A stretch of 64,000 nucleotides of DNA from an uncultured bacterium (GTDB lineage: Bacteria > Omnitrophota > Omnitrophia > Omnitrophales > Abzuiibacteriaceae): the NCBI GenBank assembly GCA_964387845.1, contig CAYLXA010000001.1:320001-384000 (forward strand), in the 5' to 3' direction. Both the position numbers and the translations under genes were made by a program. Under the pieces are notes generated by a model. The model saw only the letters and a list, made by a program, of their open reading frames with translations. It was not told the DNA's origin and did not search any database. Shown here piece by piece: positions 2,085 through 50,812 of the stretch; the first letter of the stretch is position 1, and each line of letters starts with the position of its first letter.

Positions 2085-3578
2085 TTATCTGTTGGAAAGG
2101 GCTTCGACAAGCGCTTTTCCCTTGTGAAGCGTCTCTTGATACTCTGCGGCGGGTTTTGAATCATGCACAATACCGGCGCCGACTTGGAAGTAACCCTTTT
2201 GCTGATTAATCACGATTGTGCGGATCACAATGTTGAGATCCAGATCACCATCAAAACCAAAATAGCCAATGGAGCCGGTATAAATCCCGCGTTTGAAAGG
2301 TTCCAGCTCTTCGATAATTTCCATACAGCGAATCTTTGGGCATCCCGTGATAGTTCCGCCCGGGAACATCGCGCGTACCAAATCAAATTGATCCGCATCA
2401 TCACGAAGCTCGCCCTTTACGTTTGAGACAATGTGCACAACGTGTGAATATTCCTCAAGCGCCATCATCTCGCTCACGCGCACCGTGTGCGGCTTGCACA
2501 CGCGCCCCAAATCATTGCGTTCCAGATCTACTAGCATAATGTGCTCGGCGCGCTCTTTATCATTTGAGATAAGTTCACTGCGCAGTTTCTGATTTTGCAC
2601 TGCCGTTTTCCCGCGCGGCCGGGTCCCTGCAATCGGGCGCGTTTCGCACGCACTTCCCCGCTTTTTGATGAGGCGCTCCGGCGAAGAGCTAATCACCTGC
2701 AAATCGCCGAGACGAAAGAAACTGGAAAAAGGTGACGGATTGATATCCCGCAAACGTTCATAGAGTTTCTCAGAACTTCCTGAGAAATCAAACGAGAACC
2801 GCTGTGAAAGATTGGCTTGATAAATATCGCCTGCCTCTATGTAATCTTTGCCTTTTTTGACAATCGCTTCGAATTTTGATTTTTGAATATCAGATTTAAA
2901 ATTCTGAATTTGTATTTGTCCATTTTGATAAAGCGTTTGATTGAGTTTCGAGAGAGTCTCTTGAATCCAATTTTGACTTTCACTTAGCTGATCCTCAAAA
3001 CTCTTTCTCTCGGAAGGCATTAAATTGCTGATGAGATAAATCGCTTTCTTTGATTCATCGTAAGCGATCAAATTTCGGATGAATAGGAAAACAGCTTCAT
3101 CCAGTTTTTGGTCATTCTTCGCCCGGTTGGGCAGGCGTTCAAAATCCCACGCCAAATCATAGGAAAAATAACCAACCGCGCCGCCTAAAAATTCAGGGCC
3201 GGCGTTCCATTTTCTTCCGCGATAAGTTTTAAAGAGCTTGCGCATTTCCAGAAGAAAATCACCGCGTTTTTTTACGACCCTCACCCTGCCCTCTCCCTCA
3301 GGGAGAGGGAAACGCGAAGCGTGGGTGAGGGATTTTTCGATCGAAATATTTTTACCCTGCTTTCGCAAGATTAAAAACGGGTCGCTGGCCATATAGGAAA
3401 ATGTACCGGTTTTCTGGTGAAAGCGCGCGCTATCCAGGATAAACGAATTTTCGGAAGACTGGATCCTGCGGAAAGTTTCCCAGGAACTCAACGAAGCGGG
3501 GATTTTTTGGATCAGCGGAACAATGAAGCCTTTTTGGAAATATTTTCGAAGTGTCGTGATGGGCAGAACGTTATTCAT
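2085..3578 (-). CDS. Chorismate-binding enzyme, anthranilate synthase component I / aminodeoxychorismate synthase (TrpE/PabB) family.
   Basis: The 497 aa translation has the conserved C-terminal chorismate-binding core (MLVDLERNDLGRVC…, PGGTITGCPKIRCMEII, GIYTGSIGYFGFDGDLDLNIVIRT). It contains an in-frame copy of the CCCTCACCC/CCCTCTCCC repeat (see 3278–3331) that encodes PLPEGEGRVRV. Confidence 0.75.
   Translation of the reverse strand: MNNVLPITTLRKYFQKGFIVPLIQKIPASLSSWETFRRIQSSENSFILDSARFHQKTGTFSYMASDPFLILRKQGKNISIEKSLTHASRFPLPEGEGRVRVVKKRGDFLLEMRKLFKTYRGRKWNAGPEFLGGAVGYFSYDLAWDFERLPNRAKNDQKLDEAVFLFIRNLIAYDESKKAIYLISNLMPSERKSFEDQLSESQNWIQETLSKLNQTLYQNGQIQIQNFKSDIQKSKFEAIVKKGKDYIEAGDIYQANLSQRFSFDFSGSSEKLYERLRDINPSPFSSFFRLGDLQVISSSPERLIKKRGSACETRPIAGTRPRGKTAVQNQKLRSELISNDKERAEHIMLVDLERNDLGRVCKPHTVRVSEMMALEEYSHVVHIVSNVKGELRDDADQFDLVRAMFPGGTITGCPKIRCMEIIEELEPFKRGIYTGSIGYFGFDGDLDLNIVIRTIVINQQKGYFQVGAGIVHDSKPAAEYQETLHKGKALVEALSNR
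3278..3331. repeat. Family-1 nested palindromic repeat (ccctcaccc…ccctctccc tca gggagaggg…gggtgaggg), in frame inside the PabB-like CDS.
   Basis: Read directly: ccctcaccctgccctctccctcagggagagggaaacgcgaagcgtgggtgaggg. The same unit recurs at 8835–8900, 26927–27013 and 50755–50812. Confidence 0.8.
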
Positions 3579-4887
3579 GCCGGTACATCAAAAACCCTGA
3601 GCCCAACTTCGGGTAAAAATAAGTAGACTTTTGCGGCATCAATTCTCCCGAAGCGCAAATAGCCTGCATCACTTTGGCTTCAATCGGCGGCACAATCACA
3701 GCCGCGTCAAACTTCTTGGAGCGTACGCCTTCGAGTGCCTCATCCGAAAAGCGCGTGTATTCGAGAAAATGCTCGAGATTTTTATCATCAACACCAAGAT
3801 GTTTCAAAACCAAATGTGAAACCTGCGCGACTTCAAGCCGGTACCAAATGTCGGGTTTTCCGGCCGGCATCTCCGCGCGTGCTTTTTGAATGTCTTTGAT
3901 TTTAAATAAAATCGATTCACCGGGAAAACAAACCGCGAAAGCGTCCCTGATTTTTCCCTGCGCGAGTTCTTTTACTTCCGTCTCGGAAATTTTTCTCGAG
4001 TCAAATAAGGGCGAAAGGATTTGCGACAATTCTGACGCGCTTACTTTTTTGATGTTCTTGAGCTGCCGATGGATGGGAAAAATTAAAAGCCCTTCATCTT
4101 CCAATTCCACAAGCCCCATTAAGCAATAATCGGAAGGCTGCAAGCTGCCAGCTTCAGGCTTCAAGCTTGAAGTTTGCAATTTGGAGCCTGCAGCTTGAAG
4201 CTTGCGGCTTGCGGCTTGTTCTTGGCTATAGCGCAAAGCGGTTTCATAACGGTGATGGCCATCCGCGATTAAAACCTGCTTATCGGAAAACATTTTTGAA
4301 ATCTGCGTTTTGTCGGATGAATCCGAAACCGCCCAAAGTTTGTGCGCTTCACCGTCAGAAAATTTAAATTCGTATAACGGTTTTTGTTTCTCAAATTTCT
4401 TTCTCAGTTCCTGGGCGGTTCTTTCAGAATCTTGATAAAGCCCATAAACCGGCGAAATGTTGGTTTTGATTGCTGAGAGCAGCTTGAACCGATCTTCCTT
4501 CGGGCCGGAATGCGTTTTTTCGTGCGGCAAAATCACTTTTGATTCAAAAGGCTCCACTTGAAACAGACCAAAAATCACGACGCGCGTCTTGATGCGGCCC
4601 GATTCTGGGTCTTTGAAGATGGTTTCGTAAAGATAAAAACTCTCTTTTGTGTCTTTTTCGAGAATTTGCTTCCTCAGCCATTCGTTCAGAAATTCAGAAG
4701 CTTTTTGATATTTCACACTCGCATCTTCTTTACCGTATTCGATACGAATGATGTTGTAGGGACTTTTACCGTAAAGCGCTTCCTGCTCGGCAGGTGAAAT
4801 AATATCGTAAGGCGGAGCAACCACTTGATCCATTTTGACGGACCCGGAATTGTAACGCAGTGCGCGGAAAGGTTTGATAATAGCCAT
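3571..4887 (-). CDS. DUF1015 family protein (conserved hypothetical).
   Basis: The N-terminus, MAIIKPFRALRYN…VVAPPYDIISPAEQEALY, matches the characteristic DUF1015 start. It carries an in-frame low-complexity insertion (KLQAAGSKLQTSSLKPEAGSLQP) encoded by the family-6 repeat at 4136–4225. It overlaps the PabB-like gene by 8 nt. Confidence 0.6.
   Translation of the reverse strand: MAIIKPFRALRYNSGSVKMDQVVAPPYDIISPAEQEALYGKSPYNIIRIEYGKEDASVKYQKASEFLNEWLRKQILEKDTKESFYLYETIFKDPESGRIKTRVVIFGLFQVEPFESKVILPHEKTHSGPKEDRFKLLSAIKTNISPVYGLYQDSERTAQELRKKFEKQKPLYEFKFSDGEAHKLWAVSDSSDKTQISKMFSDKQVLIADGHHRYETALRYSQEQAASRKLQAAGSKLQTSSLKPEAGSLQPSDYCLMGLVELEDEGLLIFPIHRQLKNIKKVSASELSQILSPLFDSRKISETEVKELAQGKIRDAFAVCFPGESILFKIKDIQKARAEMPAGKPDIWYRLEVAQVSHLVLKHLGVDDKNLEHFLEYTRFSDEALEGVRSKKFDAAVIVPPIEAKVMQAICASGELMPQKSTYFYPKLGSGFLMYRHE
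4136..4225. repeat. Family-6 repeat (gcttgaagc / gcctgcagc / ttcaggcttcaagc units), in frame inside the DUF1015 CDS.
   Basis: Read directly: caagctgccagcttcaggcttcaagcttgaagtttgcaatttggagcctgcagcttgaagcttgcggcttgcggcttg. A related copy lies at 53690–53790. Confidence 0.65.
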
Positions 4888-4892
4888 ATTAA

Positions 4893-4976
4893 CGTAAATT
4901 CAAATCTCAAATTTCAAAATAATTTTGATATTTGAAATTTGAATTTGTTTTGAGATTTGATATTTGAATTTTGAAA
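4893..4976. repeat. Family-5 AT-rich palindromic repeat (aaattcaaatctcaaatttcaaaat … attttgaaatt), intergenic.
   Basis: It shares the motif taaattcaaatctcaaatttcaaaat and tttgatatttgaaatttgaattt with 54108–54212. It lies between the csaA-like stop and the DUF1015 start. Confidence 0.7.
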
Positions 4977-5321
4977 TTACTTAACAATTGCTCCAGACGG
5001 TAAATCTTTTTCGGGAGTTAGAAATGCGAGACTTGAATCCGTGCTTGCGGCCAGCAGCATGCCTTGTGATTCAACGCCGCGGATCACGGCCGGAGCCAGA
5101 TTTTTCACCACCACGATTTTTTTACCGACCAGCTCTTCAGGTTTATAGAATTGTTTAATACCGGCCACGATGGTCCGTTGCTCATCGGCAATCTTAATCC
5201 TCAAAACCCACAAACGGTCGGCGTTGGGATGCGGCTCCACTGCCAGGATTTCGGCCACCCGCAGCTCCAGCTTCTTAAAATCATCGTATGTAATGGTTTC
5301 AGTCGTCATTTGAGCCGCCAT
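4977..5321 (-). CDS. tRNA-binding domain protein (CsaA / Trbp111 / MetRS C-terminal-like).
   Basis: The core MAAQMTTETITYDDFKKLELRVAEILAVEPHPNADRLWVLRIK…VVVKNLAPAVIRGVESQGMLLAA is typical of the OB-fold tRNA-binding family. The track ORF extends a further 49 codons upstream across a structured inverted repeat, which is probably not translated. The start was placed at MAAQM by codon arithmetic. Confidence 0.65.
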   Translation of the reverse strand: MAAQMTTETITYDDFKKLELRVAEILAVEPHPNADRLWVLRIKIADEQRTIVAGIKQFYKPEELVGKKIVVVKNLAPAVIRGVESQGMLLAASTDSSLAFLTPEKDLPSGAIVK

Positions 5322-5361
5322 TCTATCACTAACCAAATAACGGTGGCAAGAAGGCTTCTCT

Positions 5362-5515
5362 AGCAGTATGGGATATCTCTTCCGGCACCAGCAGTTCGCA
5401 AGCTCCTGCGGCTTGCGCCTGCCTGCGCGCTCGCCCGTTGAACCCGCCGAAAAGCATGGCGGGGCCAAGCTTCAACGGGCTCCGCGAGCTGCCTTTAGAG
5501 ATATCCCATACTGCT
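5362..5515. repeat. Long-range perfect inverted repeat (agcagtatgggatatctct / agagatatcccatactgct) enclosing ~115 bp of GC-rich, internally palindromic sequence.
   Basis: The arms sit at 5362–5380 and 5497–5515. The interior contains cccgttgaa…ttcaacggg and gcaagc…gcttgc sub-hairpins. Confidence 0.7.
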
Positions 5516-5607
5516 TTACTTTAATAGCGGAAAACAGAAAATCGTTAAAGCTTACCTTCGGAGGGAATAATTTGCCGAATGCGGCTCACGGAACCACGAG
5601 GAGCTAG

Positions 5608-5690
5608 GCCCCCCGACTCTATTTCGCAAAGCGAGACAGCGGGGGTCCGAGTGGTGAGTGCGCAGGCGGCTTGACGCCGCAGCCCGTCAC
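5608..5690. repeat. Family-2 repeat (ccccc…tttcgcaaagcgagacagcgggggtccgag…gcgcaggcgg).
   Basis: It aligns by eye with 8965–9045 (ttcgcaaagcgaggcagcgggggtctgaag…gcgcaggcgg). Confidence 0.7.
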
Positions 5691-5892
5691 CTACATTGAA
5701 TTTCCTATTGAAGGTGAGGGCTGTCCCAATTCACCTATGAATAAACGTCTTAAGGCTTTAATGATAATTGGGACTGGAACGGCCGAAGTGCCGGTGCCGG
5801 CAGACAATCCTTGCCGGTGCTTAATAAAGATGGAAAACTAGTTTATTGTTGTAAGTTATTATAAATAAATGACTTATGGAATATAGTTTTTC

Positions 5893-5920
5893 TTGTCAGG
5901 TAGCGAAAAAATGATAGAAT
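5893..5920 (+). promoter_or_regulatory. Candidate sigma70-type promoter for ino1 (TTGTCA, 16 nt spacer, TAGAAT).
   Basis: The hexamers were read directly about 70 nt upstream of the TTG start. An SD-like aaagggagag lies immediately upstream of the start. Confidence 0.35.
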
Positions 5921-5987
5921 ATCGGTCTCATTTTTGACTTTGTATCCGCGAATGTGGCCCTCAGTAAGCGTCTAAAGGGAGAGAAAA

Positions 5988-7097: not shown

Positions 7098-7098
7098 C

Positions 7099-7340
7099 CC
7101 GTCATTGCGAGGCGCTTAAATTGTCGCCGAAGCAATCTACGTTTTAAGCTTTGAAGAAGCCCTTCGCTCAGTGAATTCAACGTGAGAAATCTATTTGCTT
7201 AGGCATTGGAACACCTTCCACCGTTCCTACAATACTTAACGCTGTAGGCCGTCGGCTTTCCAACGCCTTCACACATGATTTCTCTCTCACGAATTCAATT
7301 CGCTTCGGCGCTTCTTCAAAGCTTTCCGCGCCACCCGCAT
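7099..7340. repeat. Family-3 palindromic element, expanded ~240 bp form (MITE-like). Outer arms gtcattgcgag…cgaagcaatctacgtt / gcttcggcg…; centre palindromic around 7230.
   Basis: The left end at 7099–7160 matches 14625–14665, and the right end at 7303–7340 matches the right half of the short copy. The inner ~140 bp is itself an imperfect palindrome (cctacaatacttaacgctgtagg). Confidence 0.6.
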
Positions 7341-7377
7341 CTAAATCCTAAGGCCGCAAATTGCGACCTTAGAATTT

Positions 7378-8070: not shown

Positions 8071-8739
8071 TCAAATGACCCCTTTCATTAATGTTTCTTT
8101 AACTTTCTTGGCATTTTTTAGTCCTTCGTCAATCAAAGAAATAAAATACTCAATTTCTCCATTTAAAGTACTAGGATAAAAATCTCCAACCCGACAGCAT
8201 CCTTCACAAATTCCATCCATAGCTTGAACGTAAGCGGTTTCAGCAAATGTAAGCCATTCACGCGTTTCATTCCATGTTTCCTTCCCATCATGAGTACGCC
8301 AGGGGAAATTATGAACACGTTGAATATTCCGATGAGGATTTATCTTGTCACTAATATCTTTTATTTTTTCCTCGTACTCATCAAAATGAGATAAAAACTC
8401 TTTTCGTTGTTGTTTTAACCTATCTTTTGAGAAAGTCTGTCTTTCTAATTTTAGTTCAATATTTTCTTCTGAAACTTCTTTGCTTTTTTGCATTAAATTC
8501 CATAAACTAGCTTCACTAGAACGACCAAAAATCTTTCCTAAAGCGAGAATGTACTTTGTTTCCAAAGCATCTCGAATAAAGCTGAATAAGCCACCAAATT
8601 CTCGTTCAAATCCTTCTGATTGAACAAGCCCGTTATTCCATTTGAATAATAAAGCATGGAAAATGTTAGCCTCGCAAAGATCTCTGCTTACACAGGTTTC
8701 TATTACCTTCAGTGAATCTTGAACTTCATCCATCATCAA
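8071..8739 (-). CDS. Hypothetical protein, 222 aa, in an AT-rich (compositionally atypical) gene. It has an Rx5H motif (HRNIQRVH), so it may be a HEPN-like nuclease or abortive-infection-type protein.
   Basis: The ORF is visibly more AT-rich than its neighbours. Predicted product is largely helical. No family was recognised with confidence. It is co-directional with, and immediately upstream of, the ORF6N gene. Confidence 0.5.
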   Translation of the reverse strand: MMMDEVQDSLKVIETCVSRDLCEANIFHALLFKWNNGLVQSEGFEREFGGLFSFIRDALETKYILALGKIFGRSSEASLWNLMQKSKEVSEENIELKLERQTFSKDRLKQQRKEFLSHFDEYEEKIKDISDKINPHRNIQRVHNFPWRTHDGKETWNETREWLTFAETAYVQAMDGICEGCCRVGDFYPSTLNGEIEYFISLIDEGLKNAKKVKETLMKGVI

Positions 8740-8834: not shown

Positions 8835-8900
8835 CCCTCACCCCCTCCGGGCCTAAGGCCCGATAGGGCCGGAGGCTCACCCTACCCCTCTCCCAAAGGG
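8835..8900. repeat. Family-1 nested palindromic repeat (ccctcaccccctccgggcc…ggccggaggctcaccctacccctctcccaaagggagaggg).
   Basis: Read directly. It shares the ccctcaccc and ccctctccc-NNN-gggagaggg cores. Confidence 0.75.
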
Positions 8901-8964
8901 AGAGGGAAAAACAAAGGAAGAATCTGGCTTTGTGGAGGCGGCTCTCGGAATCCTTCAGAGCTTG

Positions 8965-10559: not shown

Positions 10560-10575
10560 GTTCGAGTCTCCTTAA

Positions 10576-14021: not shown

Positions 14022-14031
14022 TTTTTATCCA

Positions 14032-14100
14032 GTGTTAAGTTGTAAGTGATAAGTTTTAAGTTATTCAATTACTTACCACTTATAACTTATCACTTACCAC
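14032..14100. repeat. Family-4 heptad hairpin (tandem NNTAAGT heptamers on one arm, ACTTANN on the other).
   Basis: gtgttaagttgtaagtgataagttttaagt – tattcaatt – acttaccacttataacttatcacttaccac. It sits between the gamma-CA stop and the sucC start. Confidence 0.75.
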
Positions 14101-14104
14101 TATG

Positions 14105-17820: not shown

Positions 17821-17910
17821 AGTCGTAAGTTGTAAGTGGTAAGTCGTAAGTTAATAAAATGGTAAGTTTTTGCTTCTTACTTACCACTTATCACTTACGA
17901 CTTACAACTG
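17821..17910. repeat. Family-4 heptad hairpin.
   Basis: cgtaagt tgtaagt ggtaagt cgtaagt … acttacc acttatc acttacg acttaca. The right arm begins at the mdh stop codon. Confidence 0.75.
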
Positions 17911-25253: not shown

Positions 25254-27038
25254 CTACGAACGAACTTTATGATAGCGGCTTCTTAATAGCAAGAGAAAAG
25301 CAACATCTGCCGCTACCACGGCGGAAACATACCCCACACCACCGCCGCCAAAACCATAACTATGAAGCCCGGCCGCTAAGACAAAATTCACGCCGTACCA
25401 GGCCATGATCACCGTCAAAAAGCAGACCGCGCACCAAAACGCGGTCGCGAATGAATCCAGCCAGCCGGCAGTTCGCCCATGCATAACCGCCAAATACGCA
25501 AGTAACGCAATCAAAGCCCAGGTTTCCTTCGGATCCCAGCCCCAAAACCGGCCCCATGAATAATTCGCCCAAACGCCGCCCAGGATTGTTCCGGCAGCGA
25601 GCAAAATAAGCCCAATTTGAAGCGAACGATAAAGAAAAGTAATAAGCTCATCTAACGTTTTATTATTTTTTTTCTTAAAAGCATAGTGAAACACAACCAC
25701 ATGCGCGACACCCCAATTGAGCAAAAACGCACCATAGCCGAGCGTAATCGTCAGCACATGAACTGTGAGCCAAAAATTGCTGCGCAAAACGGGAACCAAA
25801 GGCGAAATCGACTGGTCCAAAACCGCCGGTAAATTTTCGCTGATCAAGAGCGCCAGAATGGATACGGACGCTGCGATCATCGGAATCAAATAGGACCTGT
25901 AAAAAGCAAAAAGAATGAGCGAGAAAAGCACAACACTCCACGACACCCAAATGACTGACTCATACATGTTCGTCACGGGCGGACGCCCGGCGATTAAACA
26001 ACGCAGCACAAAACCCAACGTATGAACCGCAAAAGCCGCGGTAAAAAATGAGAAAGCGATTTTATTGGCGCGTTTTTTATTTCTCAGTGTCAGCCAGATC
26101 AGAAGGCTGCCTAAATAAATTGCCCATGCCGTATGAAACGGGCGAAATTTGAGATAGAAAAGCTCGTAATGAATCAACGTCCGGTCGATGATGATGTCGC
26201 GCGATTCCAGTAATTTTGTAAGCGCATTGGCGAAAAATGAAGCAGATACGCCGGCCATTTCGATTTTTTCATCCCGCAAGCGGCCGAGGAGAAATGAAAG
26301 TGAGTTACTCGCTTCCTTCACATTCGCCGCGGGATACATGGTTTCCAAAATGGAAATACCGTGATCGCTCGCAAGCCCCTCAAGCGGAACCCACCCCGCC
26401 TGTGGATCATCGGGATGCGGAATAAAGCCCGGCATTTCTCCGCGCCCGATAGCCTGAAACAGACGCGCTCTGCTTCCGAGTTCAATCATTGCCTTTTCGT
26501 ATTCGTTTAGTTTTTCTTTTCTGTCCTGCTTAGCCCTTACTTCACCTGTTCTTGCCGTAAAATTCAAATCGGCGAGAACAAGAGAAGGTGCGATTCTATT
26601 GTTTTCCAGATCCGCGGAGAAATCCTTTCGTAACTCGGGATTTGAAACAGGTAAAATAGCCTTCGCGCTCCAAATATCGGGGGCCGCAATCCATCGCCAC
26701 ACCAGTTCGGTTGGCTCCATTTTTTGAAAATGTGTTTTGCCGGTCATATAGAGGACGATTTCTTTCGCGAAACTCTCAAACGGCTTGACGCGGCCGCCCT
26801 GCTGAACCGGAATTCCACCCAAAACTTCGTGCGCATTACCTTCGGATTGATTGGCAAAGGATTGGGGCGAGAAAAACATCGCCAAGAGAATGACTAAAGA
26901 AAGACTGACAATAAATTTACAATACACCCCCTCACCCTTTCCCTCTCCCTGAGGGAGAGGGGAATTGTTTAACTCACTCCCTCTCCCGCTTGCGGGAGAG
27001 GGCTGGGGTGAGGGTTGATTATTTAGAAATTGTCTCAT
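25254..27038 (-). CDS. ccsA: Cytochrome c biogenesis protein CcsA (System II haem lyase subunit) with an N-terminal extension of about 280 aa.
   Basis: The C-terminal WWD domain (WGRFWGWDPKETWALIALLAY) and conserved His are present. The first ~37 codons of the track ORF are encoded by the family-1 repeat, so the true start is probably at GTG ~26927 or ATG ~26879. Either gives a signal-peptide-like N-terminus (YCKFIVSLSLVILLAMFFSPQSFA). Confidence 0.7.
   Translation of the reverse strand: MRQFLNNQPSPQPSPASGRGSELNNSPLPQGEGKGEGVYCKFIVSLSLVILLAMFFSPQSFANQSEGNAHEVLGGIPVQQGGRVKPFESFAKEIVLYMTGKTHFQKMEPTELVWRWIAAPDIWSAKAILPVSNPELRKDFSADLENNRIAPSLVLADLNFTARTGEVRAKQDRKEKLNEYEKAMIELGSRARLFQAIGRGEMPGFIPHPDDPQAGWVPLEGLASDHGISILETMYPAANVKEASNSLSFLLGRLRDEKIEMAGVSASFFANALTKLLESRDIIIDRTLIHYELFYLKFRPFHTAWAIYLGSLLIWLTLRNKKRANKIAFSFFTAAFAVHTLGFVLRCLIAGRPPVTNMYESVIWVSWSVVLFSLILFAFYRSYLIPMIAASVSILALLISENLPAVLDQSISPLVPVLRSNFWLTVHVLTITLGYGAFLLNWGVAHVVVFHYAFKKKNNKTLDELITFLYRSLQIGLILLAAGTILGGVWANYSWGRFWGWDPKETWALIALLAYLAVMHGRTAGWLDSFATAFWCAVCFLTVIMAWYGVNFVLAAGLHSYGFGGGGVGYVSAVVAADVAFLLLLRSRYHKVRS
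26927..27013. repeat. Family-1 nested palindromic repeat (two inner ccctctccc-loop-gggagaggg hairpins inside ccctcaccc…gggtgaggg).
   Basis: ccccctcaccctttccctctccctgagggagaggggaattgtttaactcactccctctcccgcttgcgggagagggctggggtgaggg. Confidence 0.8.
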
Positions 27039-28798
27039 TAGATTTTCCTCATTTTGGGGTCACTGGTCTTAAGCGTCGAATATTGTTTTAAATAGAATAA
27101 CAAAATAATTCCGACTATCATCACAATCGAACCCGCATATTTAACCGGGATACCGGGGTCGCGCGCAACTGTAAAGACGGAAATATCCGGCTCGCCGGGC
27201 GTCACTTGATACGCAGATTGATACACTTTGAAACTACGATGAACGAGCGGTTCATTCATCTGAATCAATTGATCGCGGCTGATTCCCTTCGCTACGTCTT
27301 TCAAAGTGACCTGGCTTTTGAAACTGGCGGGCCGGTTGGTGCCGGGATCCGTATCCATTAAAAAATCATTCAATTGAATCGTGAAGCCCAGCGGTTGCGT
27401 CTCAAGCCCATAAACAAAGTGCCAATCATGGCCGCCTAACTGAGTCCGTTCAACCTGGCCCTGCCGAAGCCATAAATTTTGAGATTCATTTCCGTCCGAT
27501 AGTTCGATTTGAATGACGCGAGTTGCGCCTGTGCGCTCTGAAGCGAGAGGAATCGGAGAAAATGAACGTTCTACTTCGGCATGATGATAAAAAGCATCAA
27601 CACTGAATTTAAAATCCATCCATCCGGTTTCAATTTGTTTGCCGATTTCGACAATGCCGTCCGTAAGCAAATCGCCCTTTTTAACTTGATAGCGCGGTAA
27701 ACCGTCCGGATTATAAATGAACCGAAGTTCGTTCTTTGAAGCCGCTTGATCCGCTTGGCCGGCCATTTTCATCGCAATCCGCATTCCGGAAGCGCTTGGC
27801 GCCATGCCATGCACAGTCGGAAAATCGGGAAAATTCGCGAAAATGGTATGCTGTTCGTTCAATCCATCGCCTTCCAAGATCAATTCCACCGCGGGGTTCC
27901 GCCACTCCTTGGAACGGTCAATCAATTTGTTTTGATCTACAATCGCATCACGCAAAATACGGTTGAGCTTAGCGCGGATTTTAGTGCCTTGAAGCGTAAA
28001 TGATTTTGGTTTGTCGGATTCCTTGATCGGAACCTGAATGATTTTACCCGATTTGAGCATAAATTCTAAATGCGCAAATTCATCTCCCGATTTTTTCTTC
28101 GGTTTCTCGATGTCAATCGGTTGGCGCGCAAAATGAATGACGGCGGCACCCATGGCTAGCTGATTTTTTTCGGGATTATCCAAGAAAAGCCAATCGTTGG
28201 TTTGCGCCATCGATCCGGATAGTGAAAATTGAATGGCGGGAGACCCTTTGGCGGATTCTTTGACAGATTCTCCCAAAACCGCTTTCGGGAAATCCTGCAA
28301 AACATGGATCTGAACGGAGCTTTTCGGCTTCAATTCCAATTTCCGGCGCCCGGACCACGGAAACACGCTTGGTTTATAATGCATGACAAAATGTTCTTTC
28401 AAATCGGGAGAGAAAATTTCAAGTATCGGATTCGCCAAAGTCATACGGCTTTCGGAATCGCCTTCCTGAATCGACACCTGCCCTTCAATCCCGAAACGCT
28501 GCGTGATCAAAGAACCAATGAGAATCAAGATGATTCCGAGATGGGTCAAAAGAAAACCGATGTGCTGCTTGCGCCACGGCCAACGGCTGATTGCGGATGC
28601 GGCTAAATTAATCGCCAGTAAAACCAAAACAATCGAAAACCAAGGAGTATAATAAATCAAGCGCTGGGCGGCTTCCGCACCGTGATACGACTCGATGAAG
28701 GTGCCGGCAGCCACAATAATCGCGACAGTTACAATAAGCAGAACCGCGCACCAAAGCGAAGCAAAAAATTTGAATAGGTCGGACAATAGATGATTCAT
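27038..28798 (-). CDS. resB: Cytochrome c biogenesis protein ResB/CcsB (System II).
   Basis: N-terminal TM pair, large periplasmic domain and C-terminal TM. The stop abuts the ccsA track start. Confidence 0.7.
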   Translation of the reverse strand: MNHLLSDLFKFFASLWCAVLLIVTVAIIVAAGTFIESYHGAEAAQRLIYYTPWFSIVLVLLAINLAASAISRWPWRKQHIGFLLTHLGIILILIGSLITQRFGIEGQVSIQEGDSESRMTLANPILEIFSPDLKEHFVMHYKPSVFPWSGRRKLELKPKSSVQIHVLQDFPKAVLGESVKESAKGSPAIQFSLSGSMAQTNDWLFLDNPEKNQLAMGAAVIHFARQPIDIEKPKKKSGDEFAHLEFMLKSGKIIQVPIKESDKPKSFTLQGTKIRAKLNRILRDAIVDQNKLIDRSKEWRNPAVELILEGDGLNEQHTIFANFPDFPTVHGMAPSASGMRIAMKMAGQADQAASKNELRFIYNPDGLPRYQVKKGDLLTDGIVEIGKQIETGWMDFKFSVDAFYHHAEVERSFSPIPLASERTGATRVIQIELSDGNESQNLWLRQGQVERTQLGGHDWHFVYGLETQPLGFTIQLNDFLMDTDPGTNRPASFKSQVTLKDVAKGISRDQLIQMNEPLVHRSFKVYQSAYQVTPGEPDISVFTVARDPGIPVKYAGSIVMIVGIILLFYLKQYSTLKTSDPKMRKI

Positions 28799-46026: not shown

Positions 46027-46047
46027 AACTCGAAGGTTAGAATGAAA

Positions 46048-47145
46048 TCAGATTCTGACTTTTGTTTGAATCTTTTCGATAATGGCCTGCGCCATTTCTT
46101 TGGTGCCGACTGCCGTCGGGTCATCACGATTTTGTTTCAAATCATAGGTAACGCTCTTTCCTTCACGAATGACAGCTGCTACCGCATTTTCAAGTTTTTT
46201 TGCGGCTTCTTCTTCACCGAGATGCTGCAGCATCAAAACGCCTGACAGAATAACAGCGGTTGGGTTTACTTTGTTCAAGCCCGCATATTTCGGCGCAGAA
46301 CCATGCGTCGCTTCAAAAATCGCCGCGCCGCCGATTCCAATGTTAGCGCCCGGCGCAATCCCGAGCCCGCCGATAAGCCCCGCGCAAACGTCCGAAATAA
46401 TATCACCATAGAGATTCGGGAGCACGATTACATCATACAGCTCGGGTTTTTGAACGAGCTGCATGCACATATTGTCCACAATCCGGTCTTCAAATTCGAT
46501 ATTGGGATATTTTTTTGCCACTTCGCGCGAAACTTCAAGCCACAAACCGTCCGAATACTTCATGATGTTAGCTTTATGGACAGACGTCACTTTTTTGCGC
46601 TTATACTTCACGGCATAATCAAAAGCAAATTTGACGATACGCTCCGTTCCGGAAACAGAGATGGGCTTAATGCTCACGCCTGAATCCGGGCGAATCGGCT
46701 GCTTGGAAAGAGACGAGCAAAGATCGAGAACCTGCTTTGCTTCCGGCGTTCCCTTCTGGAACTCGATGCCGGCGTATAAATCTTCAGTATTTTCACGGAC
46801 AATTACCAAATCGATGTTTTTATATTTGGAACGGACGCCTTCATAAGATTTACAGGGACGAAGGCAAGCAAACAGGTCAAACTTTTTGCGGAGTGCTACA
46901 TTGACGGAACGAAAACCTTTTCCGACCGGGGTTGTAATGGGCGCTTTGATGGCAACTTTGTTCTTTTCGATGGATTTGAGAAGTTCATCGGGAAGCGGCG
47001 TTCCCACCTTCTCCATAATATCGACGCCGGCTTCTTGGATATCCCAATTGATTTTGACGCCCGTCGCATCAATGCAGCGCTTAGCAGCTTCGGCAAGCTC
47101 AGGGCCCGTTCCATCACCGCGGATGAGTGTAATATCGTAAGCCAT
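46048..47145 (-). CDS. NAD-dependent isocitrate dehydrogenase (isocitrate/isopropylmalate dehydrogenase family).
   Basis: [11 protein letters not shown]-terminus and NLYGDIISD block. The start was placed at MAYDITL. TCA-cycle gene context. Confidence 0.65.
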
Positions 47146-47229
47146 TTTTAATTTCCCTTCTCTTGCATGAATTGCTATGATGAGCGCTTCGGAAAGTGAA
47201 ATCGTAACAAATCTATGCGGGTATTTCAA

Positions 47230-47390
47230 CAGATTATCCGCCTACGCAGAAAATACTTTTGTCAGCCTGCGTAGGACGGATCCTACGAAGCTCCGCTGCT
47301 ATAGACGGAGCGTAGTAGGATTACCATTGCTTCGGCGGATTCCGCCGACAAGTAAGGTATCACGGGCCTTAAGCCCGCGAGGCTTCATAT
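47230..47390. repeat. Stack of three or four consecutive hairpins (cctacgcag…ctgcgtagg; atcctacgaagctccg…cggagcgtagtaggat; cggcggattccgccg).
   Basis: Read directly in the 160 nt divergent spacer between the IDH gene and suhB. Confidence 0.55.
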
Positions 47391-48204
47391 GAATAAAATA
47401 AAGACGACGTTAGAAAAAGCATTGCTCGCAGGCGGCGTTTTGGTTGAGAAAGCTTTTTATCAGCCAAAGAAAATCGAGTACAAAAGCCGCGCGAATTTAG
47501 TCACCGAAACGGATAAAGCAGCCGAACGAAAAATTTTGGACGTGATTTTGAATATATTTCCAAATCATACGATCCTCGCCGAAGAAACCGAGAGTAGAAA
47601 TCCGAAGTTTACATCGAATACTTTTATCAATCCGAATCCAAAATCCGCAAAATGGATCATTGATCCGATTGACGGAACGACCAACTTTGCGCACGGTCTT
47701 GCCCTGGTTAGTGTCAGTATTGGTTTTGAAGAAAACGGCGTTTTAAAATTAGGCGGCGTTTGGAATCCAATTTTGAAAGAAATGTTCTTCGCCGAAAAAG
47801 GAAAAGGCGCTTACTTAAATGGTAAACGGATCAGCGTATCAAAAACGCCCAAATTAGAATCGTCGCTGCTCGTCACCGGTTTTCCGTACGACAAATCCCG
47901 CTATACGCACAACACAATCATGAATGTGATGAAAGAATTTTTACTAGCATCGCACGGCATCCGCCGGCTCGGCTCAGCCGCAATTGACCTATGTTATGTT
48001 GCCTGCGGGCGCTTCGACGGTTATTGGGAATCCAAGCTTCAGCCCTGGGATCAGGCGGCAGGTGCATTAATCGCAGAAGAAGCCGGGGCGAAACTTTCTA
48101 ACTTTAAAGGAAAGCGTTACAGCATTTACGAGCAAGAAACGCTCGCGACAAACGGCAAAATTCATTCGGAGATGTTGAAGGTATTGAAGAAGTTGTGGAA
48201 ATAA
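47389..48204 (+). CDS. suhB: Inositol monophosphatase family protein.
   Basis: WIIDPIDGTTNFAHG and WDQAAG motifs. Confidence 0.85.
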   Translation: MNKIKTTLEKALLAGGVLVEKAFYQPKKIEYKSRANLVTETDKAAERKILDVILNIFPNHTILAEETESRNPKFTSNTFINPNPKSAKWIIDPIDGTTNFAHGLALVSVSIGFEENGVLKLGGVWNPILKEMFFAEKGKGAYLNGKRISVSKTPKLESSLLVTGFPYDKSRYTHNTIMNVMKEFLLASHGIRRLGSAAIDLCYVACGRFDGYWESKLQPWDQAAGALIAEEAGAKLSNFKGKRYSIYEQETLATNGKIHSEMLKVLKKLWK

Positions 48205-48290
48205 CTTAGTGCTAAGGGGTAAGTGATAAGTGGTAAGTAGAAAAACGATTTTACTTATCGCTTAGCACTTACCACTTATCACTCGTTAGT
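48205..48290. repeat. Family-4 heptad hairpin (convergent gene ends).
   Basis: cttagtgctaaggggtaagtgataagtggtaagtag … tacttatcgcttagcacttaccacttatcactcgttag. Confidence 0.75.
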
Positions 48291-48294
48291 CGAA

Positions 48295-48960
48295 TTAAAC
48301 GTTCGCTGCTAAATCAGACCACGGATATTCGCCGGTCCAATGATAACCGGGATTATCCACGTGATTTGGTACCAAGCATCCGTAGATGTTGCCCAAACCA
48401 TACACCATGCGGCTCCACCAGAACCACACGCCTTTTCCGATACCTTTGACCACATTGCCTTCTTTGCTTCCCTTGACAATCTGGCCCGGAACTTCCACGA
48501 TGCCCGTAAGGCCGTTGGCGAAACCATGTATCAATTTTCTGCCGTAAGGCTTCACGCCTTCTTTTAGATTCGGCTTGAAAATACTGTACGCGGTTCCCCA
48601 TTCCCACGAACGTTCGGCGTCAAACGGAATACCAACGCCCTGGTTGGATGCGGGGCTGGCAGCCCAGAATCCAAATAGCTCGGTGAATCCTGAAACTTCG
48701 CGGCCGGCAAAATGGCCAAAACCTTTGAAAAATCCAAGAATAGTGCCGACTGCTTTTGAAGCTGGTTTATTCTTGATCACACTCAAGCCTGTGTCATATC
48801 CTTTGTAAATCTGCACCGGTACTTCAACAATACCTGTGACGATATCAATGACACCGCGGACAGCTCGCTGACCCATTCCTTCGACAATTGGGCCTGCGCT
48901 AGCAATTCCGCACGGCAATACTAGTGAAAGTGCAAAAACAAGCGCAATAACTCTACGCAT
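48295..48960 (-). CDS. Exosortase-system-associated secreted protein (TIGR04073-like), internal tandem duplication of the domain.
   Basis: Signal peptide, then two repeats of the V/KxxxGxxNxxTGIVEVPxQI block (RAVRGVIDIVTGIVEVPVQI and KLIHGFANGLTGIVEVPGQI). Confidence 0.5.
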   Translation of the reverse strand: MRRVIALVFALSLVLPCGIASAGPIVEGMGQRAVRGVIDIVTGIVEVPVQIYKGYDTGLSVIKNKPASKAVGTILGFFKGFGHFAGREVSGFTELFGFWAASPASNQGVGIPFDAERSWEWGTAYSIFKPNLKEGVKPYGRKLIHGFANGLTGIVEVPGQIVKGSKEGNVVKGIGKGVWFWWSRMVYGLGNIYGCLVPNHVDNPGYHWTGEYPWSDLAANV

Positions 48961-49149
48961 GTTTCCTCCTCTTGGTTGGTTAATGAGTTAAATATAATCA
49001 GACCGTTTAATATTTTAAGATAAAGCCGGCCTACCTTAAATGACGGCTTTACGGCGCAAAACTTGAAAGAAAGGATTTTATGCTTTGATGACAACACTTA
49101 ATTCTTTACTTAATAAAAAGGCGGATTTTATCGTTATAGTAAGCTGACT

Positions 49150-50751
49150 ATGACATCTCTAAATAACCTAAAATCAGACGGAATCGAAATTAAAGGCGCT
49201 CTTACGCCTGCCTTCTCCGAAATCCTAACGCCTGAAGCCGTCAAATTTGTTGCGAGCCTTGAAAAAAAATTTGGGGCCCGTCGGCTTGAATTATTAGAAA
49301 AGCGCAAGGTCAGGCAAGCAGAAATCAACGCCGGCAAAATGCCGGACTTTCTAAGCGAAACCAAATCCGTCCGCGACAGCGACTGGAAAGTTGCACCGAT
49401 CCCGAAAGACCTCCTCGAACGCAAAGTCGAAATCACAGGGCCCGTGGAACGCAAAATGATGATTAATGCGCTTAATTCCGGCGCCAATGTGTTCATGGCC
49501 GATTTCGAAGATTCCAACTCACCGACTTGGCAGAACAACATCGAGGGGCATATAAATTTGCGCGACGCCGTCAATCGTACGATATCATTCAAAAACCCTG
49601 ACGGAAAAGAATACCAACTGAACGATAAAATCGCGACTTTGCTGGTTCGGCCGCGCGGCTGGCATTTAAACGAGAAACACATGACTGTGAGCGGCAAAGA
49701 AATCTCCGCTTCCTTGTTTGATTTTGGGTTTTTCTTTTTCCATAACGCGAAAACTTTGATCCAAAAAGGAACAGGCCCCTATTTTTATTTACCCAAAATG
49801 GAAAGCCACTTGGAAGCGCGTTTGTGGAATGATGTGTTTAATTTCGCACAGGATGAAATCAAAATCCCGCGCAGCTCAATTCGCGCGACGGTTTTGATTG
49901 AAACCATCTTAGCTTCGTTCGAAATGGATGAAATTTTGTACGAACTGAAAGATCACTCCGCAGGCCTCAATTGCGGACGCTGGGATTATATTTTCAGCTT
50001 CATCAAGAAATTCCGAGAGAAACCGGATTTCCTGCTTCCCGACCGTGCGCAAGTGACAATGGATAAGGCTTTCCTGAAGGCCTATGTCGAACTTTTGATC
50101 AAAACATGCCACCGCCGCGGCATTCACGCGATGGGCGGCATGGCGGCACAGATTCCTATTAAATCTGACCCCATTGCCAATGAAGCGGCGCTCGAAAAGG
50201 TCCGTCAGGACAAGCTTCGCGAAGTAAAAGCTGGCCACGACGGCACTTGGGTTGCGCATCCGGGACTTATTCCGATCGCCATGGATGCCTTCAATCAAAA
50301 TATGAAAGGTGCTAATCAATTAAATGTCGCACGTTCCGAAGTTCAAATTACGGCAAAAGATTTGCTCACCGTTCCAAAAGGCGATATCACCGAAGCCGGC
50401 CTCCGCAAAAATGTGAATGTCGGAATTCTCTACATCGAATCGTGGCTGCGCGGCTTGGGATGTGTACCACTTTATTACTTGATGGAAGACGCTGCAACTG
50501 CGGAAATCTCGCGCACGCAAGTGTGGCAATGGATCCGGCATCACGCGAAAATGACAAACGGTGTTCAAGTGACAGCTGAGTTGGTACAGAAAATCGTGAA
50601 GGAAGAACTTGCCGATATGGAAAAATCGGTTGGTGTTGAGAAATTTAAATCCGGAAAATTTAAACTTGCTTCAGAAATTTTCTACGAAATGAGTACTCGA
50701 AAAGAATGTCCTGACTTTTTAACGATCGAAGCTTATAAACATTTAGATTAA
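49150..50751 (+). CDS. aceB: Malate synthase A.
   Basis: 533 aa with malate synthase A blocks (…DFEDS…, catalytic Arg/Asp region GLNCGRWDYIFS). Confidence 0.9.
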   Translation: MTSLNNLKSDGIEIKGALTPAFSEILTPEAVKFVASLEKKFGARRLELLEKRKVRQAEINAGKMPDFLSETKSVRDSDWKVAPIPKDLLERKVEITGPVERKMMINALNSGANVFMADFEDSNSPTWQNNIEGHINLRDAVNRTISFKNPDGKEYQLNDKIATLLVRPRGWHLNEKHMTVSGKEISASLFDFGFFFFHNAKTLIQKGTGPYFYLPKMESHLEARLWNDVFNFAQDEIKIPRSSIRATVLIETILASFEMDEILYELKDHSAGLNCGRWDYIFSFIKKFREKPDFLLPDRAQVTMDKAFLKAYVELLIKTCHRRGIHAMGGMAAQIPIKSDPIANEAALEKVRQDKLREVKAGHDGTWVAHPGLIPIAMDAFNQNMKGANQLNVARSEVQITAKDLLTVPKGDITEAGLRKNVNVGILYIESWLRGLGCVPLYYLMEDAATAEISRTQVWQWIRHHAKMTNGVQVTAELVQKIVKEELADMEKSVGVEKFKSGKFKLASEIFYEMSTRKECPDFLTIEAYKHLD

Positions 50752-50754
50752 CTT

Positions 50755-50812
50755 CCCTCACCCCTCCCTCTCCCTCAGGGAGAGGGATAAAGGGAGAGGG
50801 GAATTAAGGGAG
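50755..50812. repeat. Family-1 palindromic repeat filling the aceB–aceA spacer.
   Basis: ccctcacccctccctctccctcagggagagggataaagggagaggggaattaagggag. Confidence 0.8.

What the first reader, a model, noticed from the sequence alone, without database searches (positions are those of the whole stretch)
3278..50812. CCCTCACCC / CCCTCTCCC nested-palindrome repeat family, including in-frame copies inside two coding sequences
There are four copies, at 3278–3331, 8835–8900, 26927–27013 and 50755–50812. They share an outer ccctcaccc…gggtgaggg stem that encloses one or two perfect ccctctccc-N3–6-gggagaggg hairpins.

- One copy exactly fills the aceB–aceA spacer.
- One copy is intergenic in the islet described above.
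- One copy forms the 5' end of the ccsA ORF, contributing the SPLPQGEGKGEG-type peptide and probably supplying the start codon.
- One copy sits in frame in the middle of the PabB/TrpE-like gene, encoding PLPEGEGRVRV without breaking the frame.

In-frame tolerated REP insertions of this kind are unusual. The element length appears to be constrained to multiples of three where it lands in genes.
Basis: seen in the sequence. Interest (0 to 1): 0.5.

Follow-up and report, generated by a model that had tools for sequence, protein, structure and literature searches.

The report
BoxC/triplex-motif repeats inserted inside genes
The four repeats are copies of an already described bacterial repeat (BoxC, also called the "triplex motif"), here in an Omnitrophota genome. 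One copy sits harmlessly in frame in a surface loop of an enzyme, which is a tolerated piece of selfish DNA rather than a new kind of system.

Summary
The repeat family is real: CCCTCTCCC occurs 11 times and CCCTCACCC 6 times, against 0.2 expected for each.

The family is not new. It matches the BoxC / PIT / TM(ECO) "intrastrand triplex motif" pattern (CCCTCNCCC-N3-6-GGGNGAGGG-N3-GGGNGAGGG; Holder et al. 2015). One copy equals an E. coli copy except in one loop.

- **PabB-like gene:** the copy is a true in-frame insertion. 21 of 23 orthologues lack it, including the closest (87% identity). It forms the only low-confidence segment of the AlphaFold model, at the tip of a beta-hairpin.
- **ccsA:** the copy is 87 nt (29 codons), in frame. 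It lies downstream of a conserved start codon that overlaps the resB stop, so it does not supply that start.
- **aceB-aceA:** the spacer is 66 nt here and 11 nt in a relative.

In-frame tolerance is largely explained by the motif itself, which has no stop codon in 5 of 6 frames in most copies. Intragenic palindromic repeats are already documented.

One unexpected lead came up. The motif flanks DUF559 (Vsr-like) endonuclease genes: 50 of 80 metagenomic DUF559 loci carry it within 200 nt, as does E. coli ycjD. This resembles the REP/RAYT arrangement.

The parts
3278..3331 (-). BoxC/TM copy 1, in frame inside the PabB-like gene. On the coding strand it reads CCCTCACCC, a 13-nt remnant, CCCTCTCCC-TGA-GGGAGAGGG, CA, GGGTGAGGG. 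It is 54 nt and encodes SLTHASRFPLPEGEGRVR.
   Evidence: Absent from the closest orthologue. AlphaFold pLDDT is below 50 only at residues 87-96.
2085..3578 (-). PabB/TrpE-like aminodeoxychorismate/anthranilate synthase component I gene that hosts copy 1.
   Evidence: Pfam Chorismate_bind E=5.8e-95 and Anth_synt_I_N E=7.5e-27. Best solved-structure match is B. subtilis PabB 7pi1.
8835..8906 (+). BoxC/TM copy 2, intergenic, at the edge of a variable islet between the arginase-family gene and the HEPN/AbiU2 gene. It has a CCCTCACCC block, a nested foreign 32-nt palindrome (8844-8875) flanked by CTCACCC direct repeats, then CCCTCTCCC-AAA-GGGAGAGGG. There is no closing GGGTGAGGG.
   Evidence: The syntenic relative L002 has a different gene here and no motif.
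26929..27014 (-). BoxC/TM copy 3. It is a full palindromic pair: two exact TM(ECO)-pattern matches in inverted orientation, separated by a 17-nt A/T-rich spacer. It is 87 nt (29 codons) counted in frame from the Pro at codon 9, and lies between the conserved ccsA start and the signal-peptide hydrophobic core.
25254..27038 (-). ccsA (cytochrome c assembly) ORF. Its ATG at 27038-27036 overlaps the resB stop as TAATG.
   Evidence: Orthologue P0122 (89% identity) begins MRKVIAITT with no insert. P0123 carries a different repeat family at the same place.
26925..26927 (-). Alternative in-frame GTG start, one base after the element's GGGTGAGGG block. It would give a normal-length signal peptide, (M)YCKFIVSLSLVILLAMFFSPQSFA.
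   Evidence: Sequence read. Whether it is used was not tested.
50755..50801 (+). BoxC/TM copy 4 in the aceB-aceA intercistronic spacer: CCCTCACCC-CT-CCCTCTCCC-TCA-GGGAGAGGG-ATAAA-GGGAGAGGG. The aceA ribosome-binding site (AAGGGAGA) follows it.
   Evidence: The spacer is 11 nt in relative L208.
49150..52125 (+). aceB (49150-50751) and aceA (50818-52125), the genes that flank copy 4.
   Evidence: Pfam malate synthase and isocitrate lyase.

Best explanation
The four elements are copies of the BoxC / PIT / TM ("intrastrand triplex motif") repeat family, in a Candidatus Omnitrophota genome.

**Structure.** Each unit is a perfect 9-bp G/C hairpin (CCCTCTCCC-loop-GGGAGAGGG) with a third block, GGGTGAGGG or CCCTCACCC, beside it. 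Units occur singly or as inverted pairs.

**What they are.** They carry no gene. They are best read as non-autonomous, selfish or neutral DNA that survives only where it does no harm:
- an intercistronic spacer (aceB-aceA);
- the edge of a variable islet;
- the tip of a beta-hairpin loop in the N-terminal domain of a PabB-like enzyme;
- the N-terminal region of the CcsA signal peptide.

**Why in-frame survival is easy.** The motif has no stop codon in most frames. Any copy whose length keeps the frame therefore just adds about 18-29 Pro/Gly/Glu/Ser-rich residues.

**What is shown.** Family identity, insertion polymorphism against orthologues, and the loop location.

**What is inferred.** The copies are generated or homogenised by a DUF559 (Vsr-like PD-(D/E)xK) endonuclease encoded elsewhere. 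Genes of that family are typically flanked by these motifs as hairpin-GGGTGAGGG, gene, CCCTCACCC-hairpin, much as RAYT genes are flanked by REPs. Spread appears to involve replacement of a short patch rather than clean cut-and-paste, because no target-site duplication is visible and the flanks change together with the element.
For: **Family identity**
- Two exact matches to the published TM(ECO) pattern. Four more appear if loop 2 is allowed to be 2-13 nt. Chance expectation is 0.
- Copy 1 equals E. coli TMECO no. 17 except in loop 2 (Table 1 of PMC4666352).

**Insertion status**
- PabB alignment and DNA comparison.
- ccsA junctions.
- aceB-aceA spacer 11 nt against 66 nt.
- Islet variable against the syntenic contig.
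- Not an assembly artefact: the same insertion site is occupied in independent JGI and Logan assemblies, and the window's inserted CcsA protein is on record from two sources.

**Tolerance**
- The only segment with pLDDT below 50 is residues 87-96, between strands 77-83 and 99-105.
- The motif is open in 5 of 6 frames in 102 of 167 copies.
- In-frame copies split the LigA adenylation domain, sit between Mfd domains, and sit in MetRS in other phyla.

**DUF559 link**
- 7 of 7 DUF559 hits in 120 motif-selected genome loci lie within about 110 nt of a motif. The same holds for 3 of 3 in viral contigs.
- Converse test: 50 of 80 loci chosen only by a DUF559 peptide pattern have the hairpin within 200 nt, and 25 have it on both sides.
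- Motif density is 2.97 per kb near the gene and 0.13 per kb further away.
- Orientation is biased. Upstream of the gene, 30 loci have hairpin-GGGNGAGGG and 6 have CCCTCNCCC-hairpin. Downstream, 17 have CCCTCNCCC-hairpin and 6 have hairpin-GGGNGAGGG.
- The 3' end of E. coli ycjD runs into a degenerate motif. TMECO no. 9 follows a duplicated ycjD 3' remnant.

**Maintenance**
- The PabB inserts in the window and in P0003 share 36 of 36 stem bases, while the loops differ and the flanks are about 76% identical.
Against: - No DUF559 gene lies in the 64-kb window, and the rest of this genome could not be searched.
- The window's arrangement (CCCTCACCC-hairpin-spacer-hairpin-GGGTGAGGG) is the opposite permutation of the DUF559 cassette. 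It is also the opposite of the E. coli BoxC pair TMECO 1+2, judged from the Table 1 coordinates and strands.
- 30 of 80 DUF559 loci show no exact motif within 200 nt.
- No target-site duplication or clean empty site was found. In the E. coli adk-hemH spacer the motif lies in a replaced patch.
- Nuclease activity of DUF559 on this motif has never been shown, as far as I could find. Holder et al. found no link to mobile elements.
- The perfect stem conservation could instead reflect a host function.
Confidence: 0.7

Rival explanations
1. Classical REP/REPIN elements mobilised by a RAYT (IS200/IS605-type tyrosine transposase).
For: They are short G/C-rich palindromes, multi-copy, partly in inverted pairs and mostly between genes, like REPs. 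Intragenic REPs are known (PMC3733652).
Against: - No GTAG or CGTC tag at the ends of the copies (read). That tag sorts most REPs (PMC3733652).
- No RAYT-like ORF among the small ORFs of the window.
- E. coli RayT finds no relative in 1.93 Mb of motif-bearing loci plus the window. DUF559 finds 10, all adjacent to motifs.
Confidence: 0.04
2. Each copy is kept by the host for a local function of its DNA or RNA structure. Possible roles are an mRNA-stabilising or translation-modulating hairpin between aceB and aceA, a ribosome-binding or start-site context for ccsA, or triplex/quadruplex-driven local variability.
For: - 36 of 36 stem bases are conserved between two lineages whose flanks are about 76% identical.
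- Folding is strong.
- The G-rich half, GGGAGAGGG-N2-3-GGGTGAGGG, also fits a four-tract G-quadruplex pattern (read from the sequence).
- In the upstream DUF559 flanks, several loci have an ATG about 8-16 nt after the GGGTGAGGG block, where a ribosome-binding site would sit.
- Holder et al. link the motif to local genomic variability.
Against: - The closest relatives lack the copies at three of the four sites and keep the genes intact.
- PIT elements showed no promoter or terminator activity, and no triplex signal by in vivo footprinting in E. coli (PMC4666352).
- The contexts are unrelated: a coding loop, a signal peptide, a spacer and an islet.
Confidence: 0.15
3. Only the PabB copy is truly intragenic. 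The ccsA copy lies in a 5' leader: translation starts at the GTG just after the element, and the long ORF is an annotation artefact.
For: - A GTG directly follows the element and gives a canonical 25-residue signal peptide, the same length as in the uninserted orthologue.
- The relative with a different repeat at this site likewise has an in-frame ATG just before the hydrophobic core.
- Di Nocera et al. warn that most N-terminal 'intragenic' REPs are misannotations.
Against: - The ATG overlapping the resB stop, and its GAGGA, are conserved in all three lineages. It is the only plausible start in the uninserted gene.
- Two independent insertions of different families at this site both keep the frame and are free of stops. 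The chance of both keeping the frame is about 1 in 9.
Confidence: 0.4
4. Assembly or binning artefact: repeat-induced chimeric joins that create false in-frame insertions.
For: The source is a metagenome-assembled genome, and short repeats can mis-join contigs.
Against: - Gene order on both sides is collinear with an independent 86-kb contig.
- The reading frames are intact.
- The same PabB site carries the element in JGI and Logan assemblies of a different lineage.
- The inserted CcsA protein is recorded from two sources.
Confidence: 0.02

Closest known systems
BoxC / PIT / TM(ECO) intrastrand triplex motif of E. coli and other Proteobacteria (Holder et al. 2015, PMC4666352; earlier work by Bachellier et al. 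and Hoyne/Maher as cited there)
   Same: - The same three 9-nt blocks, the same order and the same loop sizes.
- Two window copies match the published pattern exactly, and one equals an E. coli copy apart from one loop.
- Multi-copy and found in both orientations.
- Inverted pairs occur.
- Sits in regions that differ between relatives.
   Different: - The host is Omnitrophota, about 46% G+C. The paper reported Proteobacteria for this exact pattern.
- Two of four copies lie inside ORFs, whereas the E. coli K-12 copies are all intergenic.
- The pairs here have the third blocks on the outside (nested stem), not between the hairpins.
REP/REPIN-RAYT systems (PMC3116915, PMC3337134, PMC3733652)
   Same: These are short palindromic repeats, often in inverted doublets, many per genome. 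A single-copy enzyme gene is flanked by them in inverted orientation. DUF559 genes show that geometry with this motif.
   Different: The motif has no GTAG/CGTC tag. The associated gene is a PD-(D/E)xK Vsr-like nuclease, not a Y1 transposase. The same sequence is shared across many phyla. The REPIN/RAYT abstracts seen describe those systems as mostly vertically inherited.
Rickettsia palindromic elements and other intragenic REPs/MITEs (PMC10969869; PMC3733652)
   Same: In-frame insertion of a palindromic repeat into conserved housekeeping genes. It is absent from orthologues, lies in loops or linkers and adds 20-30 residues.
   Different: The sequence family is unrelated and much shorter than RPE-1 (about 150 bp). 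The motif is found far beyond one genus.
Vsr-fold homing endonucleases (the VSR/DUF559/DUF2726 group in PMC3424549, which lists a group I intron homing endonuclease, structure 3r3p)
   Same: They show that this nuclease fold can drive copying of its own gene into new sites. In two Betaproteobacteria a motif-DUF559-motif cassette sits in frame inside MetRS.
   Different: No intron or intein is involved here. Activity of DUF559 on the motif is untested. The window holds only the short repeats.

Membership tests
BoxC / PIT / TM(ECO) repeat | Sequence pattern CCCTCNCCC-N3-6-GGGNGAGGG-N3-GGGNGAGGG (Holder et al. 2015) | tested here: met
   There are 2 exact matches (26929-26961 on the minus strand, 26979-27014 on the plus strand) against 0 expected. 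With loop 2 relaxed to 1-14 nt there are 6 matches covering copies 1, 3 and 4. Copy 2 has a degenerate third block.
BoxC / PIT / TM(ECO) repeat | Near-identity to the described E. coli copies | tested here: met
   Window sequence CCCTCTCCCTGAGGGAGAGGG-CA-GGGTGAGGG against TMECO no. 17 CCCTCTCCCTGAGGGAGAGGG-TTA-GGGTGAGGG.
BoxC / PIT / TM(ECO) repeat | Interspersed, over-represented and found in both orientations, sometimes as inverted pairs | tested here: met
   The pair at ccsA is inverted but in the permutation opposite to E. coli pair 1+2.
BoxC / PIT / TM(ECO) repeat | Intergenic location (a property reported for E. coli K-12, not a definition) | tested here: not met
   Copies 1 and 3 lie inside ORFs. 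Copy 1 is certainly coding.
BoxC / PIT / TM(ECO) repeat | The single strand folds into a purine-motif intrastrand triplex | not testable with these tools
   Only hairpin folding could be computed. The block composition is the same as the oligonucleotides shown to form triplexes in vitro (PMC4666352).
REP/REPIN-RAYT | GTAG or CGTC tag at one end of the palindrome | tested here: not met
   The flanks read have no such tag. The criterion is from PMC3733652.
REP/REPIN-RAYT | A RAYT (Y1 transposase) gene flanked by the repeats | tested here: not met
   There is no Y1_Tnp among the ORFs scanned with Pfam (the large ORFs were not all scanned). tblastn with E. coli RayT finds nothing in the window plus 240 motif-bearing loci, 1.93 Mb in all. 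This rests on a single query, so distant RAYTs could be missed.
MITE (transposon-derived) | Terminal inverted repeats plus a target-site duplication, with clean empty sites | tested here: inconclusive
   The elements are palindromic. Filled and empty alleles differ in the flanks as well, and no consistent duplication is seen.
In-frame intragenic palindromic elements (RPE-like behaviour) | The insert is absent from orthologues, keeps the frame and lies in a loop or linker | tested here: met
   for PabB. For ccsA the frame is kept but the start site is uncertain.
DUF559-flanking repeat (proposed here) | A DUF559 gene flanked by the motif in the same genome | not testable with these tools
   There is none in the 64-kb window. 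The remaining contigs of this genome could not be searched. The association itself was tested elsewhere and met.

The most novel reading that the evidence does not exclude
The BoxC/triplex-motif repeat has had no known origin or mobilising enzyme since the 1990s. It may be the cognate repeat of DUF559 (YcjD-type, Vsr-like) endonuclease genes, in a pan-bacterial system analogous to REPIN/RAYT but built on a PD-(D/E)xK nuclease. On this reading, the enzyme's specificity explains why an identical motif of about 33 nt is found from E. coli to Omnitrophota, Chloroflexota, Planctomycetota and Cyanobacteria, and in phage contigs. The window's in-frame copies would be its non-autonomous offspring. I found no paper that makes this link in the library searched.
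Probability: 0.45. Interest if true: 0.75.

Novelty: new member of a known kind. Interest (0 to 1): 0.45.

Why it matters
As reported, the finding is a tidy example of a known repeat family behaving as tolerated selfish DNA inside genes. It extends that family to a poorly studied phylum.

It also matters for annotation. PLPEGEG / SPxxGRG-type peptides in predicted proteins are repeat-derived, and N-terminal extensions made of them should be distrusted.

The wider value lies in the lead it opened. A strong, oriented association between this motif and DUF559 endonuclease genes gives a directly testable candidate for two open questions: who makes and maintains BoxC/triplex-motif repeats, and why their sequence is so conserved across bacteria.

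Tried and rejected
- **Rfam at gathering thresholds:** only a tRNA in the window, nothing at the repeats.
- **RAYT hypothesis:** rejected.
- **Clean empty sites or target-site duplications:**
  - The PabB, ccsA and aceBA sites show changed A/T-rich flanks rather than clean insertions.
  - The E. coli adk-hemH spacer shows a replaced patch. 2,917 of 5,426 genomes have the K-12 form.
  - No conclusion on the insertion mechanism could be drawn.
- **Precise excision in the closest PabB orthologue:** considered and judged unlikely.
  - That allele has the ancestral-type residues (ERGGKV...) at the site.
  - The gene is a mosaic of blocks at 94-97% and 55-73% identity, which points to recombination.
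- **Locating the window's own record:** attempted through the exact PabB protein, which is not on record. The genome could therefore not be counted for copies or for DUF559.
- **ORF-spanning survey of motif copies in other genomes:** it gave 48 candidates, but many are spurious long ORFs in high-G+C DNA. Only the four checked with Pfam and supported by it are claimed: LigA, Mfd and two MetRS. The fifth, the PrmC-like ORF in L020, matched Pfam only upstream of the insert and is not claimed.
- **Literature searches** for DUF559, ycjD and BoxC found no paper linking them.


Full report
**1. Observation**

The window holds 11 exact CCCTCTCCC and 6 exact CCCTCACCC nonamers, counting both strands. 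Dinucleotide-preserving shuffles give 0.2 of each, and no shuffle reaches the observed count. All of them lie in four places: 3278-3331, 8835-8906, 26929-27014 and 50755-50801.

Each place has at least one perfect 9-bp hairpin, CCCTCTCCC-N3-6-GGGAGAGGG. As single-stranded DNA the four stretches fold far better than shuffles, with z from -2.9 to -6.7.

- Only copies 1 and 3 have both outer arms (CCCTCACCC and GGGTGAGGG).
- Copy 2 extends to 8906. It contains an unrelated 32-nt palindrome between two CTCACCC repeats.
- Copy 4 ends near 50801, and the aceA ribosome-binding site follows it.

**2. Host and gene contexts**

The best protein relatives are from Candidatus Omnitrophica/Omnitrophota assemblies. 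Pfam confirms the following genes:
- the PabB/TrpE-like enzyme, 2085-3578 on the minus strand;
- ResB, 27038-28798 on the minus strand;
- CcsA, 25254-27038 on the minus strand;
- malate synthase, 49150-50751;
- isocitrate lyase, 50818-52125;
- a HEPN/AbiU2 protein beside copy 2.

**3. PabB copy**

- In an alignment of 24 orthologues, only the window protein and P0003 (74% identity) have extra residues at this point. The closest orthologue, P0002 (87% identity), and 20 others do not.
- At the DNA level the window and P0003 carry the element at the same site. P0003 has the longer two-hairpin form.
- P0002 has ancestral-type codons there. Identity between the window gene and P0002 is mosaic, with blocks at 0.94-0.97 and blocks at 0.55-0.73. 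The presence/absence pattern is therefore best explained by recombination between alleles, not precise excision.
- The four 9-nt stem blocks are identical (36 of 36 bases) between the window and P0003. The loops differ and the flanks are about 76% identical. This points either to constraint on the stems or to gene conversion among copies.
- An AlphaFold model has mean pLDDT 89.4. Its only segment below 50 is residues 87-96, between strands 77-83 and 99-105. The insert therefore lengthens a beta-hairpin tip.
- The fold matches solved PabB and TrpE structures, with B. subtilis PabB 7pi1 best.

**4. ccsA copy**

In the window and in two relatives, the resB stop overlaps an ATG (TAATG or TGATG) preceded by GAGGA.
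- The uninserted orthologue starts MRKVIAITT...SPQSFA.
- In the window, 87 nt (29 codons) of element plus short A/T-rich flanks lie between codon 8 and the hydrophobic core, in frame.
- In the other relative, a different repeat family (GTCATTCCCG...CGGGAATC) occupies the same place, also in frame.

The element therefore does not provide the conserved start codon. A GTG directly after it (26927-26925) could serve as an alternative start, and I cannot decide between the two.

**5. Other two copies**

- The aceB-aceA spacer is 66 nt here and 11 nt in an 81%-identical relative.
- Copy 2 lies at the border of an islet that holds a different gene in the syntenic 86-kb contig. That contig carries only one element in about 40 kb.

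**6. What the family is**

A full-text search for the two nonamers led to Holder et al. 2015 (PMC4666352).
- The motif is their TM(ECO), earlier called BoxC and PIT. Its pattern is CCCTCNCCC-N3-6-GGGNGAGGG-N3-GGGNGAGGG.
- They found it 3,610 times in 262 proteobacterial genomes.
[quoted passage not shown] In vivo footprinting gave no triplex signal, and it has no promoter or terminator activity.
- It is associated with locally variable regions.
- It is always intergenic in E. coli K-12.

The ccsA copy is two exact pattern matches in inverted orientation. Copies 1 and 4 match if loop 2 is relaxed. Copy 1 equals E. coli copy no. 17 apart from that loop.

The hits came from Proteobacteria, Chloroflexota, Planctomycetota, Cyanobacteria, Acidobacteriota, Verrucomicrobiota, Omnitrophota and others. 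The same scan also hit the limit of 120 viral contigs.

**7. Why in-frame copies are tolerated**

- Of 167 motif copies in those loci, 102 are free of stop codons in 5 of 6 frames.
- Pfam-checked examples in other phyla:
  - a copy that splits the LigA adenylation domain in a Planctomycetota genome;
  - a copy between the UvrB-interaction and D3 domains of Mfd;
  - MetRS genes of two Betaproteobacteria.
- Intragenic REPs, often in repair genes, and Rickettsia palindromic elements are established precedents (PMC3733652; PMC10969869).
- The multiple-of-three lengths (54 and 87 nt) are what survivorship predicts. They do not show a constraint on the element itself.

**8. An unexpected association**

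In the two MetRS genes, what sits in frame between two inverted motifs is a DUF559 endonuclease domain. The association was then tested in several ways:
- **Motif-selected loci.** tblastn with that domain found 7 DUF559 genes in the 120 genome loci and 3 in the 120 viral loci. All lie within about 110 nt of a motif, and several are flanked on both sides.
- **Converse test.** 80 metagenomic loci were retrieved only by a DUF559 peptide pattern, with G+C from 28 to 71%.
  - 50 have the hairpin within 200 nt, and 25 have it on both sides.
  - Motif density is 2.97 per kb near the gene and 0.13 per kb beyond.
  - Orientation is biased. Upstream of the gene, 30 loci have hairpin-GGGNGAGGG and 6 have CCCTCNCCC-hairpin. 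Downstream, 17 have CCCTCNCCC-hairpin and 6 have hairpin-GGGNGAGGG.
- **E. coli K-12.** The single DUF559 gene, ycjD, ends in a degenerate motif. A duplicated ycjD 3' remnant and TMECO no. 9 follow it.
- **Control.** E. coli RayT finds nothing in the same 1.93 Mb.

I found no paper that links DUF559 or ycjD with BoxC. The Vsr/DUF559 fold does include a homing endonuclease (PMC3424549).

**9. Mechanism, with its limits**

*Shown:*
- the family identity;
- the insertion polymorphism;
- the loop location;
- the stop-poor composition;
- the DUF559 association in other genomes.

*Inferred:*
- The window's copies are non-autonomous relatives of DUF559 cassettes.
- A DUF559 nuclease creates or homogenises them.

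*Against or open:*
- The window's nested arrangement is the opposite permutation of the cassette.
- There are no target-site duplications. Filled and empty alleles differ by replaced patches, both here and in the E. coli adk-hemH spacer.

**10. Verdict**

The element is a new member, in a new phylum and partly intragenic, of a known repeat family, and in-frame tolerance has an ordinary explanation. The most novel reading that remains open is the DUF559 link.

Noticed in passing
L008:1307-1800, L025:2111-2660, L056:5594-6030; L128-L207; L127:1540-2330 (E. coli ycjD): DUF559 (Vsr-like) endonuclease genes are flanked by the BoxC/TM motif in a fixed orientation. 50 of 80 metagenomic DUF559 loci have it within 200 nt. 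All 10 DUF559 hits in motif-selected loci are adjacent to it. The 3' end of E. coli ycjD runs into one.
   Followed up: yes
L025:1777-4515 (-), L008:2-2161 (+): In two Betaproteobacteria a motif-DUF559-motif cassette lies in frame inside methionyl-tRNA synthetase, between the anticodon-binding part and the C-terminal tRNA-binding domain. The result is one long ORF.
   Followed up: partly
L084:3173-6157 (-), L011:1065-4649 (-): In-frame copies of the same motif split the LigA adenylation domain (Planctomycetota). Another sits between the UvrB-interaction and D3 domains of Mfd, in a contig labelled Bordetella.
   Followed up: partly
window 14031-14101, 17821-17909, 48208-48283, 55888-55959, 60043-60114: A second, unrelated repeat family. 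It consists of inverted arrays of 7-nt units (AGTGATA AGTGGTA AGT...) that fill five intergenic spacers. There are 30 matches to a 17-mer against 0.05 expected.
   Followed up: partly
L005:10022-10105 (and L006): In the closest syntenic relative, the same position at the 5' end of ccsA is occupied, in frame, by a different palindromic repeat (GTCATTCCCG..CGGGAATC / TCCCCGC..GCGGGGA). It encodes SLRDAKIVIPVNAGIYNPDPRSKYAG.
   Followed up: partly
window 8844-8875: A unique 32-nt palindrome (CCTCCGGGCC...GGGCCGGAGG) lies inside the CCCTCACCC block of copy 2, flanked by a 7-nt direct repeat, CTCACCC. It looks like a nested insertion.
   Followed up: partly
window 4137-4218 (inside the DUF1015 gene, 3571-4887, minus strand): A palindromic AAGCTTGAAGC-type segment encodes KLQAAGSKLQTSSLKPEAGSLQ. 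The syntenic relative has a similar segment of the same length. It may be an older in-frame repeat insertion.
   Followed up: partly
Alignment A1 (P0004, P0008, P0022, P0042): Other Omnitrophota PabB orthologues carry their own odd lineage-specific segments, for example ...GRPPRLPVTSGRPQGVAPT..., and C-terminal tails ...EIASSSLR..SSQ. These look like products of other repeat families.
   Followed up: no
window 2085-3578 against L001:260-1705: The PabB gene is a mosaic relative to its closest orthologue, with 120-nt blocks at 94-97% identity alternating with blocks at 55-73%. This indicates recombination between diverged lineages.
   Followed up: partly
L209-L328 (IMG/VR contigs): The exact composite motif occurs in at least 120 viral or proviral contigs. 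That is a possible route for its spread between phyla. Holder et al. reported no link to phages.
   Followed up: partly
window 8071-8739 against L002:4837-5946: The gene between the arginase-family gene and the ORF6N gene differs between the window (HEPN/AbiU2, 222 aa) and the syntenic relative (a 369-aa protein with no Pfam match). This is a small variable islet bordered by copy 2.
   Followed up: partly
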